A stretch of 64,000 bases of DNA from Novakomyces olei (Eukaryota). The stretch covers positions 806,001-870,000 of the forward strand of contig JADEYG010000007.1 in the NCBI GenBank assembly GCA_016906335.1, read 5' to 3'. The translations under genes and the position numbers were made by a program. Under the pieces are notes generated by a model, which saw only the letters and a program-made list of their open reading frames with translations, did no database searches and was not told where the DNA came from. Shown one piece after another: positions 1 to 44,230 of the stretch. Each line of letters starts with the position of its first letter. Within the stretch, counting starts at the first letter, position 1.

Positions 1-2176
1 TTGTCACTGAACGGCTTTGCATCCGGCCACCTGTCGGCCATTACACTGAGCAGGGAAACACACCGAGTAATTTGTGGCATTATCCGGTGAATAACGTCAA
101 AAAGCCTCTCCTGATCCTGGCTCCAGAGGCAGTAAAGTAGAGTAATCCCAGCTCCATATATGTGGTGAAGCGTGTAGTAAGTATGCCTTAAATATCCATT
201 GGATTGCATTATTTGAAACAGGTTCAGCATCTCTGTTGCTGCGGAAACAACACGGAAGACTTCGTCGCTAGTTGTGCTCCCGTCAATTAAGGCATTTCTG
301 CAGAGTGTAAAAATCGTATTGTGATAAACGAGTCCCAGTGTGGAGTAAGGGTCCCCTCGCAGTAAGGAAACGTCCAAGTCTCGCGGCAATTCTGCCCAAA
401 CTTGATCTAATTCTCTAATAAAATGCTTGCGCTGTTCTCGTCTTTCCTCGATTCCACCGTCGGCCCTTTTACACAGAAAGCTCTTCACTAACCCCTGCCA
501 CCGGCGAAGCCTAATGGTTGCATTGAATATTTGAATAGCAACACTATCAACACTCGTATACTCTGGCAACCAAGGATCAGGCAGGCAAGCGTCAATCTCG
601 TCATCTGGGATCCGTGTTGGTCGACCCAGTAGGAAAGTATCACTGCGATCAAGCGCATAAATTGAATAAAAAAGCCGATTCCGTTGATCAACATCAAGTC
701 TTGACCAATGTAACCGGTCCCGGTGCAATGAGGCATCTCTATGTAAACCTTGCTGCATGGCAGTGTTGAGCGACATGCCCACTAGTCGCCAAAGGCTCTG
801 GCCGGATCGGCTTTGCAGGCTGTAAACGGCCAGTAAGAAAAGCGCCTGCACGCATAGAGTATCATCTCGTACAAGCACCGGGTCAATGTACCTCAGTGCC
901 GACATGTAAAAGGCTCGTGAACTGTACTTTGCATGGTAACTGAAATGTAAAGGCTCCATAAATTTAGCGCCAATGGCCCACACCATATAAACTTGGAACA
1001 AATCTTGTGCTTGAGCTCCGTTTCGGAGTGTTTGTACATTTGCTAGACGTTGAGCAAAAGCATGACGATCAAGTATGGGGTACTGCCAATGAATCCAGGC
1101 GAAAAAACTCTCTACCAGCTCTTCAGAGTGAGCAGGATTAGGGATAGGAGCCTCTTTTACCTGGCTTTTATATATACTATCATACATCCTGTACTCGGGC
1201 TGTGAATCAACTGGGAGGGGCACCTCCATCTGCAATGTCTTCCCAAGCACTCTCGCAAAAGTTAGGCCTGAAGACGAGCCCATGAAATGATGTTCGCTAG
1301 AGGCACTTAGAGCTAAAAGGCCAACACCTGACGCGATCTCGTCATACTCGTGCGAAGGCAGAACCATGCCCGAAGATTCGGCTGAAACTGATTCCGGTGA
1401 CTTTTCCGATAGACTTTGTCTGGAATCTAGTCGCTGTACTTGCCCAGGCTTTGATCCCGGGGCCGAGCCTGATATATGTCTTGATCCTAATTGAGACTCG
1501 TAAGTTTCATGTTTTGCCAGTTTGGATACTGGCTCTTCTGCACTTTCAGGCGCAGCTGTAGTTGGACCGTTTTCTTCTGCTCCTGTTCCTCCTGCAGCTG
1601 CCGCTGGAAGTGCAATAGAAAGCGACACTCCCGAGTCTGCAGCTGCAAAATGGTCCAGCACTAAATCCGGTCTGTATACATGCAACGATTTTTCCAGTAG
1701 AGCGACTCGTTCTTCCAGAGACTGAACGTATCCGCGCGGATAAAGCCGTTCCGAGTACGGATCTTCCATAACGCAGACCAAATTGGCCCTTCGGCACGCG
1801 GAGCAGCTGAACGTGGGTTAAACAAACCGTAAAGATAACGCATTTGTAATAAAGCAACATCCAACGAATTCAGGCGTAAAAAAAAGAATTGAAAACATTG
1901 GAGATGATTATCCATAATGACTTACGATGGTACTTCACCGTCGCACTATCGCGATAAAAAGCAAACGCATTAGTTACAATTAAACTTTAAGAGGCAATTG
2001 TTTTGCCTTTGGCGCTTCAATCTTTTGTACCTTGCAATCTCTTCTTTTCTCACCTCTATTTTGCTTTATTTTTATTTTTAATCATTTTACAACGCTCCTT
2101 CTCAACTCACTCTCTGTTTGCGCTGTTTGCAGCGCGTGCAAGCAACTGCCACGCGACGCGGCATCGGTGGCGGCAT
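1..2176 (-). CDS. Zn(II)2Cys6 fungal transcription factor (3' end runs off window)
   Basis: Manual splicing of exon 2176-2111, micro-exon 1945-1926 and exon 1806-<1 gives MPPPMPRRVAVACTRCKQRKQR/CDGEVPS/CSACRRANLVC, then YVQSLEERVALLE (coiled coil), HFMGSSSG, FFAWIHWQYPIL and AMQQGLHRD (fungal TF middle homology region). Missing from the ORF track because it has no stop inside the window. Confidence 0.9.
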
Positions 2177-38199: not shown

Positions 38200-41100
38200 A
38201 AAGGCCTGATCTGGGCAAACAACAATTTAGGCCACCAGAAGTTATGACAGTTTTTACGGAACCGGACAAAGCAAAGCATCTGACTGTCGTCGTGAAAGTC
38301 AAGACAGAGGATGGAGAGTTGAACGCGAGAGCCCTGATTGACTCAGGAGCTACCTCTAATTTTATCAGCGAGAAACTCGCATCGCATGCTTTTATTAAGC
38401 TTACGGAGAAGAGCGAGACCGAGCCCATCAGAGTCGTTGATGGAAGGACAATCAAGTCAGGAGGTATTCGCTTTCACACCAGCGAGATGGATATATCAAT
38501 TGGCGAACATCGAGAAAGGATGACCTTCAATGTCATACCTCTTCGTGGATACGATGCTATCTTGGGCAAGCCATGGTTGGACAAGCATGAGCCTACGATC
38601 GGATGGAGTCGCGCAAACGTCGAGTTTAAGTCGAACTACTGTTTGGCGAACTGTTTGAAGTGCAGTACATTATCCGAATCCATGCAAGTCAGCGCAACCG
38701 AATTTGCAAGATTGGCTCGTAATGGAGAATCAGGTATTTTATGTGTGTACGCAACGGACGAGCAAGATATCAAGCCTCGCGTTACATTGCCTGGGTTCTA
38801 CGAGGGATATCGCGACCTATTTGAGAAGAAGAACGCGGACGTTTTGCCGAAACATCAACCTTGGGATCATGCGATACCCTTGGCCGAAAATGCAAAGCCG
38901 CCTTTTGGTCCGATCTACCCGCTCGCCGAACGCGAATTGCAAACGCTGAGAGATTATATCAAGGAAAACCTCGCTAAAGGTTTTATACGACCGTCGTCGT
39001 CGCCCGCGGGGGCGCCGATCTTATTTGTCAAAAAGAAAGATGGATCGCTTAGATTATGCGTTGACTATCGCGGTCTGAACGCAATCACTGTCAAAAACAG
39101 ATATGCATTACCGCTTATATCCGAACTTCTAGATCGCATTCGCCAAGCAACTATTTTTACGCGATTGGATCTTCGCGGTGCATATAATTTGGTTAGGATA
39201 CGAAAAGGCGACGAATGGAAAACGGCCTTTCGTACGAGGTACGGCCACTACGAGTACCAAGTCATGCCGTTTGGGCTTACGAATGCCCCGGCTTCGTTTC
39301 AAGCACTCGCCAACGACACTTTGCGAGATTGCCTGGATCGATATGTTGTCGTTTACTTGGACGATATACTGATTTACTCAAATACAGAGGAAGAACACGT
39401 GGAGCACGTGCGCGGAGTATTGGAGAGACTTCGCAAGGCAAATTTATTTGTCAAATTGGAGAAATGCGAATTCCATACCGACACAACGGAGTTTCTTGGC
39501 TTCGTGATTTCAACGAAAGGTGTGTCGATGGAAAATACGAAGGTCAAATCGATTGAAACATGGCCCGAGCCAAAGAATGTTAAGGAGGTTATGTCGTTCC
39601 TGGGACTGGCGAACTATTACCGAAGATTCATCGCCAACTACAGCAAGATTACGGTACCTCTTACCCGGCTTTTAAAGAAGGATACAAAGTTCGTGTTTAG
39701 CGACGAATGCAGGGAGTCATTCAATGCGTTGAAGGATGCATTCTTAGGCGCACCTATTCTTGTGCACTTTGATCCACAAAAGCCGAGCTTCTTGGAAACG
39801 GACGCCTCAGATTTTGCGATAGGCGGGATCCTTTCGCAAAAGGATGAAAACGGCGACACGAGACCAATCGCATTTTACTCGCGCAAGATGACAAGCGCAG
39901 AGACGAACTACGACATTCACGACAAGGAGCTATTAGCTATTGTTGTATGTCTTCGGGAATGGAGGGTATACTTGGAGAGTCCCCTTCACAAAACCACGAT
40001 ATACACGGATCATCGCAATCTTGTGTACTTTTGGACCGCGCGTGTCCTGAATAGACGGCAAATGCGCTGGTCGCAGTTACTTGCGTCTTACGATTTTGTG
40101 ATCGTGTATCGTGCGGGAAAGTTTAACCACAAGGCTGACTCCTTATCGCGAAGAAGCGATTACGTTAGCAGCGAAGAGGAGGAAAAGCCAGAACGAACAA
40201 TGGTGCTTTTGGACAAATCGCAATTTGTGTTTGCGATTGAGGACAACAAAACGCTGGCACAGGATATTAAGAAATGCTACGAGAAGGACAGCATTTGCAA
40301 AAATATTATTGAGGAGTTAAAGAGCAAGCCTCGTGCTGCTCATTTGGAGAACTATACAATAGACAAGGAAGGTCTGTTAATGTTCTCGGGTTTGATTTAC
40401 ATACCCAGAGACAACGATTTGCGATTATCAATCATGCAAGAATGTCATGATTCGCAGACTTCAGGTCACCCCGGACAGGCCAAGACGCTAGAGCTTGTGA
40501 CACGAAATTACTACTGGCCTAGGATGCGGAAGGACGTATTTAACTATGTGGACTCATGCGACACTTGCGCACGAAGTAAACCATCGCGTCATGCTCCTTA
40601 TGGTCTACTACATTCGTTGCGAGTGCCTACAAAGCCTTGGGAAAGCATTGCTATGGACTTCATTGTGAAGCTCCCGGTGTCAAGAGATGTCATCACAGGC
40701 AAAGACTACGACTCAATTTGGGTTATAGTATGTCGCTTTACGAAGATAGGCATCTTTGTACCAATATGCGAGACCATGAGCGCGAAAGAACTAGCATTGC
40801 TATACGCTCACAGAGTATTTGCTAACTTTGGACTGCCAGAAGAAATTATCTCAGATCGTGGATCAGTTTTCGTATCACATTTTACAAAGCATTTACTCGC
40901 ACATTGTGATATCAAGCAAAGGTTATCAACTGCGTACCATCCCCAGAGCGATGGACAAACGGAAAGGCTTAATCAGAGCCTCGAGCAATATTTGAGAATT
41001 TACAGCAATTACCAACAAACGAATTGGGTAAACTTGCTACCTTTTGCACAGTTCGCATATAACAATACTGAGCAATCATCAATAAAAGCGACCCCTAGTT

Positions 41101-41429
41101 ACGCTTTATATGGGTATCACCCCAAATGCCGTTTTACGATAGCAACAGCACGGCAGTGTCCATCGGCGGACAATCGGATTGATTTCTTGCGAACGCTACA
41201 TCGCCTTTTACAGATTGAGATCAAGCACGCCATTAGCGATCAAGCACGGTTTGCTAATACGCACCGTGTCGACAAGGATTTTGAAGTCGGCCAAAAAGTA
41301 TGGCTAGTGAGAAAGAACATCAGTACCACTAGGCCAAGCGACAAGTTGGATTACAAGAAAATTGGACCTTTTACAATCTTGGAACGTATCGGTTTACGTG
41401 CATACAAGTTGGATTACCGAACACGATGA
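38172..41429 (+). CDS. pol: Gypsy pol (PR-RT-RNaseH-IN), -1 frame relative to gag
   Basis: LIDSGAT (protease), MPFGLTNAP and YLDD (RT), TDAS/DHRNL (RNase H), HPG..C..C, MDF/SDRG/GQTER (integrase) and IGPF (GPY/F). Entry is probably via the slippery site at 38172-38178. Confidence 0.95.
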   Translation, partial: GKSERPGPMKRPDLGKQQFRPPEVMTVFTEPDKAKHLTVVVKVKTEDGELNARALIDSGATSNFISEKLASHAFIKLTEKSETEPIRVVDGRTIKSGGIRFHTSEMDISIGEHRERMTFNVIPLRGYDAILGKPWLDKHEPTIGWSRANVEFKSNYCLANCLKCSTLSESMQVSATEFARLARNGESGILCVYATDEQDIKPRVTLPGFYEGYRDLFEKKNADVLPKHQPWDHAIPLAENAKPPFGPIYPLAERELQTLRDYIKENLAKGFIRPSSSPAGAPILFVKKKDGSLRLCVDYRGLNAITVKNRYALPLISELLDRIRQATIFTRLDLRGAYNLVRIRKGDEWKTAFRTRYGHYEYQVMPFGLTNAPASFQALANDTLRDCLDRYVVVYLDDILIYSNTEEEHVEHVRGVLERLRKANLFVKLEKCEFHTDTTEFLGFVISTKGVSMENTKVKSIETWPEPKNVKEVMSFLGLANYYRRFIANYSKITVPLTRLLKKDTKFVFSDECRESFNALKDAFLGAPILVHFDPQKPSFLETDASDFAIGGILSQKDENGDTRPIAFYSRKMTSAETNYDIHDKELLAIVVCLREWRVYLESPLHKTTIYTDHRNLVYFWTARVLNRRQMRWSQLLASYDFVIVYRAGKFNHKADSLSRRSDYVSSEEEEKPERTMVLLDKSQFVFAIEDNKTLAQDIKKCYEKDSICKNIIEELKSKPRAAHLENYTIDKEGLLMFSGLIYIPRDNDLRLSIMQECHDSQTSGHPGQAKTLELVTRNYYWPRMRKDVFNYVDSCDTCARSKPSRHAPYGLLHSLRVPTKPWESIAMDFIVKLPVSRDVITGKDYDSIWVIVCRFTKIGIFVPICETMSAKELALLYAHRVFANFGLPEEIISDRGSVFVSHFTKHLLAHCDIKQRLSTAYHPQSDGQTERLNQSLEQYLRIYSNYQQTNWVNLLPFAQFAYNNTEQSSIKATPSYALYGYHPKCRFTIATARQCPSADNRIDFLRTLHRLLQIEIKHAISDQARFANTHRVDKDFEVGQKVWLVRKNISTTRPSDKLDYKKIGPFTILERIGLRAYKLDYRTR

Positions 41430-41719
41430 AAATACATCCTGTATTCCATGCTTCTTTATTGGAATCGTACAAGTCTACGTCTACGATTGTGCGACAGCAG
41501 ACAGCACCACCACCACCAATAATAATTGAGAATACACCAGAGTGGGAGGTAGAGAAAGTGTTGGACTCCAGGAAGCGAAGAAATAAATTGGAATATTTTG
41601 TACATTGGAAGGGATACGATAGTGCTAATCGCACTTGGGAGCCGGCAGGCAATTTGACAAATTGCGACGATTTAGTGAAAGAATTTCACAGATTACACCC
41701 GGCTAAGCCGAAGCTATGA
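41416..41719 (+). CDS. Integrase C-terminal chromodomain, out of frame with pol
   Basis: IHPVFHASLL followed by WEVEKVLDSRKRRNKLEYFVHWKGYDSANRTWEP; one inserted T at about 41414 would rejoin it to pol. Confidence 0.88.
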
Positions 41720-41931
41720 TGTTTACGTTAATCGCGATACAGGTTACGTCATTCAACTCACGTAATCTTACGCAATCGCGAGACTCAACTCTTGATTTTT
41801 GTTTACGACTGCGATATAATACACAATTCGCACTAGTTATTTATCGCTATTTGGAAATTTTTTTTTGAAAATGTATTAAAAATTATTAAAATCAAAACAA
41901 GATGTATCGCATATTTGAAGAATTTTGGCGC

Positions 41932-42363
41932 TCATTCCAAGCCGCGCAAAGCCGAAATTTCCGCTTTCAGCTCTAGGACCTGCTGACGGAGCGAATCGAT
42001 TTCGCGATCTTTAGCGGCCAATGCTCTTTCAACAGCAACCCCGAGGCCCTCAGACGAATCGGTTGCCGCGCATTGGGCGACTTCTACAACGGGCGTCGCA
42101 ACGCGAGGAACAGTGGAGGCCAACTTTGCCTTACGAGCGTTATCATACTTACGATACTCGCGCTCGACGATCGACCCGCGTATGCGCGAATTCAACAGGG
42201 TCGGCGACATAAACATCGCGCCCTCGCACTTGGTTTTACGCGCCGCACACGCTAAGCAGCGACGGACGCGAGGGATGGCTGTCATGAAGAACTCACAGCG
42301 CCTCCCCTGCGAAACACAATAGCCGCACGGCTTCTCGGACACAGTCACACGTGCAAGCGACAT
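41932..42363 (-). CDS. Antisense accessory ORF in the gypsy element: six-Cys zinc-cluster-like domain plus C-terminal coiled coil (143 aa)
   Basis: C-x2-C-x6-C-x12-C-x2-C-x6-C spacing; heptad-like IDSLRQQVLELKAEISALRGLE; ATG start, GC-rich relative to AT-rich flanks. Confidence 0.72.
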   Translation of the reverse strand: MSLARVTVSEKPCGYCVSQGRRCEFFMTAIPRVRRCLACAARKTKCEGAMFMSPTLLNSRIRGSIVEREYRKYDNARKAKLASTVPRVATPVVEVAQCAATDSSEGLGVAVERALAAKDREIDSLRQQVLELKAEISALRGLE

Positions 42364-42625
42364 CGCGTTCAGAACTGTCTTTGCGAACGCGACTGGATAC
42401 TATTTATCTTCGCGTTTTGCCTCTTTACCCCTCTGCAACAAAACGCGAACACCCCTTTTATTTTCCCATGCTATTCTATATGTTTATTTACGCGTTTACT
42501 GAGGAGAAAATATTATTGTGACACGCGGCAATTGAAATTAGCGTTATTTTGTTCGCCTTTCTATTTTTATGGAATATTTTATGTTTTGCGGGCGCGGGGA
42601 CCTCGCCCAAGGGAGGGGGGGATAC

Positions 42626-43264
42626 TGTCATGACTGTCATGATCCTCGCCTTGGCGAGTCCCTGACAACCGCGTTGGGAAGCGAGGGGCGACGCCTGTAG
42701 TCGGACTTGGGATGTCCGCGCGTCGCAAGCTTCGCCAACGCGGCCCAAGACCAGTCGGCGCGTAATGCGATGGTCTTGGGACGTAGAAGTTGTCTTAGTG
42801 CGCATGTAGGTACGCGCACTAAGCCAGCTTGGCCCACGGGAGCGAGGGGCTCCATGCACAATGTGCACGGACCTCGCTTCCCGTTCTCATTCTCGCACGC
42901 TAGCGAGTGCGACCCTTCGCACTCCGCTAGCGCGAGAACATTCATAGTTATTTCATAGATTAGTTTAGGCTGAGAGCTTCCCTCTCTAACTTGTGCGACC
43001 TTCGCATAAGTTAGCTTGGGAAGAGTAGTTTAGAATGCGAAGGAGCATCCGCTCCTCCGCAACTTAGTTTAGTTTATAGTTGCCCGTGAAGGCCTCTCGC
43101 CCTTCACGGGTTGATTATCTCAAAGTGGGAGTAATATATTATATTACTCCTGGTAAGCTTTACAGTAATCGCTTTCTGCTTTCCTGGTCTTTCTTATTCC
43201 TTTACTTTATTTAAACTATACACGGCCGGCCTCCAGCGATTGTAGCTGTAAGGACCGTCTTACA
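42626..43264 (+). repeat. Gypsy 3' LTR
   Basis: Preceded by the PPT and followed by TSD CTTTT. Confidence 0.97.
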
Positions 43265-44230
43265 CTTTTGTCAAATGTCCATATATTCTGCAATTGTTAC
43301 AGTATCTTGCGTTTTTCCCATTAGGATTCTTAAAGCAGTCATTTGTTTTGTGGCCATTCTTATCGCAGTAACCGCATTTGTTAACAGACTTTTTAGACTG
43401 TCTCTCAGCCTTATCGCTATATCCATTGTTTCCACTTTTGAAATTTTGATTTGATCTGTTGATATGATAGGTAGATTCTTCTCCTCGAACAGGAATATGG
43501 TGGGCTCCATTTCCGGAATAGGAAGTCTTATCCATTGTGTAATAAATTAGTTCATTATCGATAAGGTCAAGTAGATCAAATACGTGGGTCTCAGAATTAA
43601 TAGTGGAGCTCACGTTGTGTCGGATTGTATTTGCAATGTCGCGAGGTATTGCAGAAAGTATGCCGCAATAGGCAAAGTAGGTGAGTTCCGTGTAGCCGAG
43701 TCGAACTAAATTTACGATTTGTTTTCTGTATTCCGTAATAAAGTTTTCCGGGTCTCCATTCCATAGTTTCGACGGATTCATAAATTTTGATACAATGGAT
43801 TCGGTCACTTGATGCTTTCTTTTTTCGAATTCGGTGTCCAGTAGTTCAAATAGTTTTTGAGGGGTTTTGAGCCCTTCGATTCGGGGTCCAAGAAGATCCC
43901 CACTTATTGCTTCGACTAGTTCAGCCGTGACTATTAGTGTGCTCACATTCGACACTGTAGTTGTGTCGACAGAATTGTCTAGCAGCGATGAAAGGCCATG
44001 TAATTCAAGTCTATTTTTGATTTTAATTCTCCACTCCAGATAGGAATGCCAATCTTTCAATTGAGGGATGACTCCAAGAATAATAGTATTATTTCTGATG
44101 CTAGATGCCTGTCCGGGGGTGACATTGACATCAGCCATTTGAGCTTTGAATAAGAGAAATAGTTTTATTAAAAGACAGCGAGCGGTATCTTGAGTTTGAA
44201 ATTCAACAATCACCTTCCAGGCTCATAACC

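What the first reader, a model, noticed from the sequence alone, without database searches (positions are those of the whole stretch)
41932..42363. Chromovirus carries an antisense accessory gene encoding a half-swapped Zn2Cys6-like protein with a coiled coil
Seen: between the chromodomain stop (41719) and the PPT (42609) there is an intact 143-aa ORF on the opposite strand. It reads PCGYCVSQGRRC-x12-CLACAARKTKCEG, the six-Cys spacing of fungal binuclear zinc clusters, and ends in a heptad coiled coil. The halves look swapped: the basic module CxxCxxRKxKC[DE]G normally comes first (compare the host TF in this window, ACTRCKQRKQRCDG), but here it comes second, and the PCxxC-x6-C module comes first. 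No acidic activation region or middle homology domain is evident. A TATA-like AAGATAAATAG lies about 40 bp upstream on that strand, with an AT-rich 3' flank. Established: standard Tf1/sushi chromoviruses encode only gag and pol. Inference: the element encodes its own small dimeric DNA-binding regulator (self-repressor, activator, anti-silencing factor or dominant-negative decoy).
Basis: partly seen in the sequence, partly recalled or inferred. Interest (0 to 1): 0.85.

Follow-up and report, generated by a model that had tools for sequence, protein, structure and literature searches.

The report
Divergent BRTN-like antisense gene in chromovirus
A young fungal retrotransposon carries, on the strand opposite its gag and pol genes, a small gene for a zinc-cluster-like protein with a long helical tail; it looks like a divergent, shortened version of the already described but functionally unexplained 'brtn' gene of Boty-type elements.

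Summary
A 143-aa antisense ORF (41932-42363, minus) lies between the chromodomain stop and the polypurine tract of a 6973-bp chromovirus with identical LTRs. It has six Cys in Zn2Cys6 spacing and a confident C-terminal helix.

It is not unique. The three metagenomic chromoviruses nearest by integrase (43-45% identity) each carry an antisense ORF of 173-202 aa in the same slot, also with six Cys followed by a coiled coil. A profile of these four ORFs finds 64 proteins, including Sclerotinia SS1G_06438. That protein is 64% identical to a Botrytis cinerea protein that UniRef names 'Putative BRTN'. brtn is the antisense gene of Boty-like retrotransposons published in 2011.

The window's ORF is an outlier. 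A family HMM built without it does not find it. hhalign aligns only the Cys module (E 3.6e-4). It lacks the family's C-terminal motifs and does not overlap pol.

With the family as alignment, AlphaFold2 gives pLDDT 82. At least 17 of the 21 Foldseek rows shown are Zn2Cys6 DNA-binding domains, at weak scores.

Expression, zinc binding, DNA binding and dimerisation are untested.

Verdict: a real accessory gene, a new variant of a known kind. Interest is moderate.

The parts
36287..36291 (.). Target-site duplication CTTTT, left copy
   Evidence: Junction sequences. The same 5 bp follow the right LTR.
36292..36930 (+). 5' LTR, 639 bp (TG...CA)
   Evidence: 639 of 639 identical to the 3' LTR.
37267..38199 (+). 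gag (Ty3 capsid, Retrotrans_gag, CCHC knuckle)
   Evidence: Pfam.
38103..41429 (+). pol: protease, RT, RNase H, integrase and SH3. It ends at a one-base frame break near 41413.
   Evidence: Pfam. All contigs of runs X1 and X2 that cover 41413 carry one more base there (table 4). The break is therefore private to this copy or to the assembly.
41426..41719 (+). Chromodomain end of pol, in a shifted frame
   Evidence: Pfam Chromo, E 1.3e-17.
41720..41931 (-). AT-rich spacer, 3' flank of the antisense gene (29-32% GC)
   Evidence: Variant copies diverge here (loose end at 41857; substitutions at 41859 and 41877).
41932..42363 (-). Antisense accessory ORF (ORFx), 143 aa
   Evidence: No difference inside it in X1 contig record 6. 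None either in X2 record 15, which covers 41908-42292.
42226..42327 (-). Six-Cys module, residues 13-46 (Zn2Cys6 spacing)
   Evidence: Regex. All six Cys and R35 fall in nearly invariant family columns. hhalign E 3.6e-4. Model residues 10-52 superpose on Gal4, 1cld and Hap1 clusters.
41938..42054 (-). C-terminal helix or coiled coil, residues 104-142
   Evidence: AF2 helix 104-142 (single sequence) and 107-142 (with alignment). Heptad count.
42400..42410 (-). TATA-like AAGATAAATAG, 36 nt upstream of the ATG
   Evidence: Sequence. Function not tested.
42609..42622 (+). Polypurine tract
   Evidence: Sequence.
42626..43264 (+). 3' LTR, 639 bp
43265..43269 (.). Target-site duplication CTTTT, right copy

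Best explanation
ORFx is a genuine accessory gene of this chromovirus. It belongs to the same kind as brtn, the antisense gene that Boty-like chromoviruses carry between pol and the 3' LTR, but it is a strongly diverged and C-terminally shortened version.

Shown: the ORF, its position and its motif. The nearest relatives carry an equivalent gene. The conserved Cys columns are retained. The predicted fold resembles Zn2Cys6 domains.

Inferred, protein: an N-terminal Zn2Cys6-type binuclear zinc cluster, followed by a linker helix and a long helix. This is the layout of the DNA-binding plus dimerisation part of Gal4-, Hap1- and Ppr1-type factors.

Inferred, mechanism:
- The gene is transcribed antisense from a promoter in the 245-bp AT-rich spacer or in the 3' LTR.
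- The protein binds two zinc ions, pairs through the helix and binds DNA.
- It thereby tunes transcription or chromatin of the element's own LTR, or competes with host zinc-cluster factors there.
- Because it lacks the acidic-aromatic tail of the BRTN family, it would more likely block than activate.
For: 1. Same slot in relatives. L001, L002 and L003 are the three best integrase matches of 80 metagenome loci (45, 44 and 43% identity). Each has a minus-strand ORF of 184, 173 or 202 aa with six Cys and then a coiled coil. Each lies between the chromodomain end of pol and a polypurine run plus LTR start.

2. Link to BRTN.
- The profile of the four ORFs finds 64 proteins at E <= 0.01.
- One of them, P0044 (Sclerotinia SS1G_06438), is named 'Zn(2)-C6 fungal-type domain-containing protein' by UniRef.
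- P0044 finds 127 proteins, including a B. cinerea protein named 'Putative BRTN' (64% identity, 100% coverage, E 1.3e-61).

3. Conserved columns. In a 108-row alignment, ORFx's six Cys and R35 sit in nearly invariant columns. 101 of the 107 other rows have all six Cys, and 99 of 107 have the Arg.

4. Direct similarity.
- hhalign of ORFx against the 63-row family: E 3.6e-4, 33 columns, all six Cys aligned.
- Smith-Waterman against the L001 protein scores 62. This was reached by 2 of 2000 full shuffles, and by 77 of 2000 shuffles with the Cys held fixed.

5. Integrase tree. The window, the three carriers and L004-L006 form one clade (SH-aLRT 95). The carrier label needs 2 changes. The well-supported branches do not rule out a single origin. 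0 of 500 shuffles were as clustered.

6. Fold.
- AF2 with the family alignment: mean pLDDT 81.9; the ten-residue blocks over the Cys module (residues 11-50) average 78-91; helices at 14-19 and 37-42.
- 17 of the 21 Foldseek rows shown are entries of proteins I know as Zn2Cys6 factors (Pho7, Ppr1, Put3, Leu3, Gal4, AlcR, Hap1). Two more (1cld, 6gys_B) I recall to be such.
- VIA-align: Z 2.2-3.8. For example 1cld, 33 of 33 residues at 2.1 A; Gal4 1aw6, 36 residues at 2.7 A.

7. Keeping 6 of 6 Cys, the Arg and an open frame through this much divergence argues for selection.
Against: - A family HMM built without ORFx does not find it (E > 10 among 5741 six-frame ORFs).
- Smith-Waterman scores against the L002 and L003 proteins are at chance: 1127 and 994 of 2000 shuffles did as well.
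- At the same integrase distance (43-46%), the three carriers score 74-132 against each other, while ORFx scores 31-62.
- ORFx lacks the family's conserved C-terminal motifs.
- It does not overlap pol, and its ATG is 245 bp from the polypurine tract. In the relatives that distance is a few to about 30 bp.
- Its inter-half spacer of 12 residues occurs in no other row.
- No homologue of ORFx itself turned up. Sources searched: 5.8 billion clustered proteins; 1.84 billion representatives, with one hit to an internally repeated protein that I judge spurious; metagenome DNA.
- Pfam Zn_clus is below threshold, and all structural scores are weak.
- The copy is so young (identical LTRs) that an open frame in this copy alone proves nothing.
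- No dN/dS could be computed.
Confidence: 0.6

Rival explanations
1. Decaying relic. ORFx descends from a BRTN-type gene but is no longer functional. It lost its C-terminal third and drifted, and it is still open only because this copy inserted very recently.
For: - It lacks the conserved C-terminal motifs.
- The family HMM misses it.
- It is more diverged than the carriers are from each other at equal integrase distance.
- The LTRs are identical, so the frame has had no time to decay in this copy.
- Word depth over the ORF is lower than over pol (X1: 36 against 53). The tool warns that depth is not copy number.
Against: - Drift large enough to defeat an HMM should also have hit the six Cys, the Arg before Cys4, the start codon and the frame. 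All are intact.
- The helix keeps a heptad pattern.
- X1 record 6 differs from the window at three places, all in the flanks and none in the 432-bp ORF. This is weak: about 2.7 changes would be expected.
Confidence: 0.18
2. Independent capture. The antisense slot was filled, or refilled, by the N-terminal DNA-binding and dimerisation part of a host Zn2Cys6 transcription factor. ORFx would then resemble BRTN by convergence or non-orthologous replacement.
For: - The ORF is a sharp GC island (57-60%) between AT-rich flanks, unlike pol at 40-45%.
- Its second half matches the canonical Zn_clus first half (16.5 bits, E 0.0095 against 24,736 models). This is at least as good as its match to the BRTN family.
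- It has no overlap with pol and a different spacing.
Against: - No host-type zinc-cluster protein matches it among 1.84 billion representatives. A recent capture is therefore excluded.
- The same slot, strand, size and order of modules occur in the three nearest elements.
- The N-terminal S-L-A-x-V stretch aligns with the family's conserved L-A-x-x-I motif.
- R35 is conserved.
Confidence: 0.14
3. Chance ORF in a GC-rich stretch of non-coding spacer.
For: ORFs of this length arise in 1.75-5.25% of shuffles. No RNA evidence exists, and no homologue of ORFx itself was found.
Against: - The strict six-Cys spacing arose in 4 of 2,000,000 residue shuffles.
- An equivalent gene sits in the nearest relatives.
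- The AF2 model is confident when given the family alignment.
- GC is lowest at codon position 2, as in the other genes here.
Confidence: 0.04

Closest known systems
[quoted passage not shown] 2011, Virology 417:248). The paper itself is not held. I saw it only as cited in passages of PMC8365987, PMC7264820, PMC4227169 and PMC5987419.
   Same: - Antisense orientation, between pol (with chromodomain) and the 3' LTR of a Ty3/gypsy chromovirus.
- A small protein with six Cys in two C-x2-C-x6-8-C halves, followed by a coiled coil.
- The host element falls in the same integrase clade as the carriers found here.
   Different: - ORFx is 143 aa against a family median of 188 aa.
- It is not found by the family HMM.
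- It lacks the R-R-G-L...L-D-E-L motif and the acidic-aromatic tail.
- It has no tail-to-tail overlap with pol and a 245-bp leader before the polypurine tract.
- It has a 12-residue inter-half spacer.
- Its basic R-K-x-K signature is in the second half.
Zn2Cys6 binuclear-cluster DNA-binding domains with a coiled-coil dimerisation element (Gal4, Hap1, Ppr1, Put3, Leu3, Pho7; Pfam PF00172)
   Same: - Cys spacing.
- Two short helices, each starting at a C-x2-C.
- The order cluster, linker, long helix.
- These structures fill the Foldseek list, and model residues 10-83 align to them.
   Different: - Below the Pfam threshold.
- The structural scores are weak (Z below 4).
- The canonical basic residues between Cys2 and Cys3 are missing in the first half.
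- No middle homology region or activation domain.
- Encoded by a retrotransposon, not a host locus.
Antisense ORFs between pol and the 3' LTR of plant Ty3/gypsy elements (Grande, RIRE2, Retand, PvRetro13), as reviewed in PMC7264820 (section 5 read)
   Same: Same slot and orientation. Conserved within families. Function unknown.
   Different: - The hosts are plants, and Retand is called a non-chromovirus lineage in the abstract of PMC11963269.
- No sequence relation was tested or seen here.
- The passages read report no zinc-cluster motif for them.
HBZ of HTLV-1, an antisense-encoded dimerising transcription factor expressed from the 3' LTR
   Same: It works alike in outline: an antisense gene at the 3' end of a retroelement that encodes a small factor with a dimerising helix.
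   Different: No homology. HBZ is a bZIP protein of an animal retrovirus. The regulatory role of ORFx is only inferred.

Membership tests
BRTN-type antisense gene of Boty-like chromoviruses | Antisense ORF between a chromodomain-ending pol and the 3' LTR | tested here: met
BRTN-type antisense gene of Boty-like chromoviruses | Significant match to a family profile (HMMER) | tested here: not met
   An HMM of 67 family sequences built without ORFx gave E > 10 among 5741 ORFs.
BRTN-type antisense gene of Boty-like chromoviruses | Profile-profile or pairwise similarity | tested here: inconclusive
   hhalign probability 36.8%, E 3.6e-4, Cys module only. Smith-Waterman against L001 reached by 2 of 2000 shuffles. 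Scores against L002 and L003 are at chance.
BRTN-type antisense gene of Boty-like chromoviruses | Six conserved Cys and the Arg before Cys4 | tested here: met
   101 of 107 rows share all six Cys, and 99 of 107 share the Arg.
BRTN-type antisense gene of Boty-like chromoviruses | Conserved C-terminal motifs (R-R-G-L...L-D-E-L, or A-I-x-V-E-E with L-S-P-F-T-W-S; acidic-aromatic tail) | tested here: not met
   Alignments. ORFx ends right after its helix.
BRTN-type antisense gene of Boty-like chromoviruses | 3' end overlaps the end of pol, and the ATG lies next to the polypurine tract | tested here: not met
   L001-L003 overlap pol by 92, 100 and 146 bp. In the window there are gaps of 212 bp and 245 bp. 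That this feature holds for the published Boty brtn was not checked.
BRTN-type antisense gene of Boty-like chromoviruses | Host element related to carrier elements | tested here: met
   Integrase clade of 7 rows, SH-aLRT 95.
Zn2Cys6 binuclear cluster (Pfam PF00172) | C-x2-C-x6-C-x5-12-C-x2-C-x6-8-C spacing (consensus recalled) | tested here: met
Zn2Cys6 binuclear cluster (Pfam PF00172) | Score at or above Pfam's gathering cut-off | tested here: not met
   16.5 bits against 21, half of the profile only. In the related family, 22 of 63 members match at E <= 1, best 2.1e-4.
Zn2Cys6 binuclear cluster (Pfam PF00172) | Fold of the cluster | tested here: inconclusive
   Zn2Cys6 structures dominate the Foldseek list, but the best E is 0.28. 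VIA Z is 2.2-3.8.
Zn2Cys6 binuclear cluster (Pfam PF00172) | Basic residues between Cys2 and Cys3 of the first half, which read DNA in Gal4-type proteins (recalled) | tested here: not met
   The first half reads V-S-Q-G-R-R. The R-K-x-K signature is in the second half.
Zn2Cys6 binuclear cluster (Pfam PF00172) | Binds two zinc ions and DNA | not testable with these tools
   No assay was possible. CGG pairs in the LTR are not enriched.
Chromovirus (Ty3/gypsy with chromodomain) | gag, PR-RT-RNH-IN, C-terminal chromodomain, LTRs, target-site duplication, polypurine tract | tested here: met

The most novel reading that the evidence does not exclude
The BRTN family, this outlier included, is a retrotransposon-borne branch of the fungal zinc-cluster transcription factors. 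These would be self-encoded, antisense-expressed DNA-binding dimers that set the transcriptional or chromatin state of the element's LTRs.

ORFx would be a natural version with only the DNA-binding and pairing parts. It has lost the acidic-aromatic tail and carries its DNA-reading basic signature in the opposite half of the pseudo-symmetric cluster. It would therefore act as a repressor or decoy with a different binding geometry.
Probability: 0.15. Interest if true: 0.75.

Novelty: new variant of a known kind. Interest (0 to 1): 0.45.

Why it matters
Antisense genes between pol and the 3' LTR are known in plant and Boty-type elements, but the review read here calls their function unknown (PMC7264820).

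This work adds the following:
- The fungal family is large: 64 and 127 proteins in two searches.
- Its named members span at least two classes of Ascomycota. Botrytis and Pseudogymnoascus are Leotiomycetes, and Sporormia is a Dothideomycete.
- The family sits in a distinct integrase clade.
- It has the layout of a zinc-cluster DNA-binding domain plus a pairing helix.
- The window adds a shortened outlier from a very young, possibly still active copy.

If these proteins bind LTR DNA, they would be a self-encoded transcription factor of a fungal retrotransposon. That is a testable handle on how such elements control themselves or evade silencing.

In four library searches I found no open paper that links brtn to zinc clusters. 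The 2011 paper itself and all supplements were not readable, and UniRef already carries an automatic Zn(2)-C6 label on the Sclerotinia members.

Tried and rejected
Genome and earlier notes
- No genome is held for the window, so copies could not be counted or compared directly.
- Earlier notes of this scan: nothing by sequence or by genome.

Searches with ORFx alone
- Word-indexed protein search: 37 candidates, none scored.
- Exhaustive phmmer: one hit, P0001, a 1198-aa internally repeated protein at 26% identity. I judge it spurious.
- PDB sequences: best E 1.5.
- Metagenome tblastn: none of 447 pattern matches.
- ESM Atlas, whole protein: top score 0.77. Residues 1-60, named clusters only: top score 0.84, no zinc-cluster family. 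These are leads only.
- Exact look-up: ORFx, gag and four host ORFs are not in the collection.
- Viral contigs searched with the integrase: none.

RNA
- No RNA holder is listed.
- Two RNA-seq runs of the same species label (X5, X6) laid 0 reads on the whole element. The tool says this is no test, because the organism or the element was not shown to be in those runs.
- Several other runs of that label hold next to none of the words.

Dimer
- Complex prediction on residues 60-143, two copies: no verdict (0.30 against the mark of 0.32).

Binding sites
- One CGG-N11-CCG lies in each LTR, but there are 11 in the window against 7.1 expected.
- CGG/CCG pairs at 0-15 spacing in the LTR are not enriched: 752 of 1000 shuffles had as many inverted pairs.

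Other
- Depth and variant tables cannot give dN/dS. The ORF shows no listed variant, but 21 variant rows were not shown.
- The single-sequence AF2 model was poor over the Cys module (pLDDT 43-52).
- Host taxon: only that it is a fungus with Fungal_trans, Rft1 and similar genes. No class could be assigned.
- Zhao et al. 2011 could not be read.

Full report
**The element.** The window holds a complete Ty3/gypsy chromovirus at 36292-43264 (6973 bp).
- Its two LTRs (36292-36930 and 42626-43264) are identical over all 639 bp.
- A 5-bp duplication, CTTTT, flanks it.
- Pfam finds gag (Ty3 capsid, CCHC), then protease, RT, RNase H and integrase, then a chromodomain.
- pol is split by a one-base frame break near 41413. 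All contigs of two DNA runs that cover this place carry one more base there. The break is therefore private to this copy or to the assembly.
- The element sits inside a copia-type element. The copia pol (32613-35912, minus) and gag (43260-44138, minus) lie on either side of it.
- The surrounding genes are fungal: Fungal_trans, Rft1, ATG7, RPA1 and others.

**The observation.** It is correct.
- A 143-aa ATG-to-stop ORF lies on the minus strand at 41932-42363. It sits in an unusually long 906-bp spacer between the chromodomain stop (41719) and the 3' LTR.
- It has six Cys spaced C-x2-C-x6-C-x12-C-x2-C-x6-C. This is the only such string in any frame of the window.
- It is a GC island of 57-60% GC between flanks of 29-36% GC.
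- The TATA-like string lies 36 nt before the ATG.
- Length alone is weak evidence: 35 of 2000 shuffles (or 105 of 2000 with the GC island kept) give an ORF this long.
- The Cys pattern is strong evidence: 4 of 2,000,000 residue shuffles reproduce it.

**ORFx alone has no detectable relatives.**
- Nothing came from the word-indexed search.
- The exhaustive phmmer search gave one hit, to an internally repeated protein, which I judge spurious.
- Nothing came from PDB sequences, metagenome DNA or the ESM Atlas.
- Pfam Zn_clus matches only residues 36-48, to the first half of its profile, at 16.5 bits against a cut-off of 21.

**The turning point was the element's own relatives.**
- A metagenome scan with the integrase gave 80 loci.
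- A six-frame search for the Cys pattern over all 80 hit only the three best matches, L001, L002 and L003 (45, 44 and 43% integrase identity). The hits were on the minus strand, just downstream of the integrase. Four other pattern hits, in L058, L062, L069 and L075, lie on the plus strand next to or upstream of the integrase match and were not examined further.
- Each of the three has an antisense ORF of 184, 173 or 202 aa: a basic N-terminus, six Cys, then a coiled coil.
- In each, pol ends with a chromodomain, and the antisense ORF overlaps the end of pol tail to tail by 92, 100 or 146 bp. Its ATG lies a few to about 30 bp from a polypurine run that is followed by an LTR start. L002 also shows a 127-bp terminal repeat.
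- ORF listing was done for L001-L040 only. The regex and a family HMM over all six-frame ORFs of 50 aa or more covered all 80 loci.

**These ORFs belong to a large family, and it is BRTN.**
- The profile of the four proteins found 64 proteins at E <= 0.01 among 8000 scored candidates. Most come from metagenomes and run assemblies. Many lie on contigs of 6-7 kb.
- Named ones include a Sporormia fimetaria protein and Sclerotinia SS1G_06438. UniRef calls the latter a Zn(2)-C6 fungal-type domain-containing protein.
- Searching with that protein gave 127 hits at E <= 0.001 among 502 candidates. Among them is a Botrytis cinerea protein that UniRef names 'Putative BRTN' (64% identity, full coverage, E 1.3e-61). 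Members also come from Monilinia, Stromatinia, Hymenoscyphus, Pseudogymnoascus and a Mollisiaceae species.
[quoted passage not shown] All cite Zhao et al. 2011. That paper is not held.
- The review says the function of such ORFs is not known.

**How ORFx relates to the family is less clear.**

For a relationship:
- In a 108-row alignment its six Cys and R35 fall in nearly invariant columns. 101 of 107 rows have all six Cys, and 99 of 107 have the Arg.
- hhalign against 63 family rows aligns all six Cys (E 3.6e-4, probability 37%).
- Smith-Waterman against the L001 protein (score 62) is reached by 2 of 2000 shuffles, and by 77 of 2000 with the Cys held fixed.
- On the integrase tree (71 rows; 10 loci with short matches were left out), the window, the three carriers and L004-L006 form a clade with SH-aLRT 95.
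- On that tree the carrier label is more clustered than in any of 500 shuffles, and a single origin is not ruled out. L004 and L006 lack such an ORF.

Against a relationship:
- A family HMM built without ORFx does not find it.
- Scores against L002 and L003 are at chance.
- At equal integrase distance the carriers resemble each other far more (scores 74-132) than ORFx resembles them (31-62).
- ORFx lacks the conserved C-terminal motifs and the acidic-aromatic tail.
- It does not overlap pol.
- Its inter-half spacer of 12 residues is unique in the alignment.

**Fold.**
- Alone, AF2 models only the C-terminal helix well.
- With the family alignment the mean pLDDT is 81.9. The ten-residue blocks over the Cys module (residues 11-50) average 78-91. 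Short helices lie at 14-19 and 37-42, and long helices at 54-101 and 107-142.
- Foldseek finds nothing at E <= 0.001. Yet 17 of the 21 rows shown are entries of Pho7, Ppr1, Put3, Leu3, Gal4, AlcR and Hap1, which I know as Zn2Cys6 proteins. Two more (1cld, 6gys_B) I recall to be such.
- VIA-align gives Z 2.2-3.8. Model residues 10-52 lie on the whole cluster in register, and residues up to about 83 lie on the linker and pairing helix of Hap1 and Ppr1.
- I read this as support for the fold, not proof. The domain is small and the scores are weak.
- Because the cluster is pseudo-symmetric, the superposition cannot settle the 'swapped halves' idea. At the sequence level the basic signature is indeed in the second half of ORFx, but not in the family.

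**Population data.**
- Contigs of two DNA runs hold the element.
- In X1 one contig spans 41828-42603 with three differences, all outside the ORF. In X2 one contig covers 41908-42292 with none.
- Among the 41 variant rows shown none lies in the ORF, but 21 rows were not shown.
- About 2.7 differences would be expected in 432 bp at the pooled rate of the other X1 contigs. This is no more than a hint.
- Loose ends at 41857 and 42552 show copies whose spacer diverges.

**What I conclude.**
- ORFx is most likely a real accessory gene of the brtn kind, strongly diverged and shortened (confidence about 0.6).
- The proposed mechanism is an antisense-expressed, zinc-binding, paired DNA-binding protein that acts on the element's LTR or competes with host zinc-cluster factors. 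It is inferred from the layout alone.
- A preprint reports that zinc-cluster factor sites are the most frequent class enriched in yeast Ty5 LTRs (passages of 10.1101/2025.04.25.647736). This makes the idea plausible but is not evidence for it.
- The rivals are a decaying relic (0.18), an independent capture of a host factor's N-terminus (0.14) and chance (0.04).

**Novelty.** The kind is known: brtn was published in 2011, and UniRef already carries an automatic zinc-cluster label on some members. New here are:
- the outlier form in this element;
- the breadth of the family;
- its restriction to one integrase clade among the loci sampled;
- the fold assignment with its Gal4-like order of modules.

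Noticed in passing
window 32613-35912 (minus) and 43260-44138 (minus): The chromovirus is nested in a copia-type element. The copia pol and gag ORFs lie on either side of the insertion, and the gag frame runs into a stop just inside the chromovirus LTR end.
   Followed up: partly
window 41413: The pol frame break of this copy is absent from all covering contigs of runs X1 and X2, which carry one more base here. A second one-base difference lies at 42543, in the spacer.
   Followed up: partly
window 41857 and 42552: Contig ends in X1 and X2 run on into sequence that resembles the window's spacer but differs from it. Word depth over the ORF is lower than over pol. Some copies of the family therefore seem to carry a different spacer.
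   Followed up: no
window 1773-1805 (minus): The Fungal_trans ORF at 3-1817 starts with only the second half of a zinc cluster, followed by a coiled-coil-like stretch. Its first half is presumably in an upstream exon.
   Followed up: partly
P0071, P0044 (family proteins): Some family members have Tyr in place of several of the conserved Cys. Examples are P0071 of B. cinerea and P0044 of Sclerotinia. Such changes need G-to-A transitions, as expected for copies hit by repeat-induced point mutation (inference).
   Followed up: no
L004 6404-6673 (minus) and L020 11233-11463 (minus): The sister group without a BRTN-like gene shares a different short Cys-rich minus-strand ORF downstream of pol. It may lie in the LTR. 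Not examined.
   Followed up: no
window 42702-42718 and 36368-36384: Each LTR holds one CGG-N11-CCG palindrome. This count is compatible with chance.
   Followed up: yes
run list: Only 2 of the 23 listed runs with the source species label hold the stretch. Most of the others hold next to none of its words. The element may be present in only some isolates.
   Followed up: no
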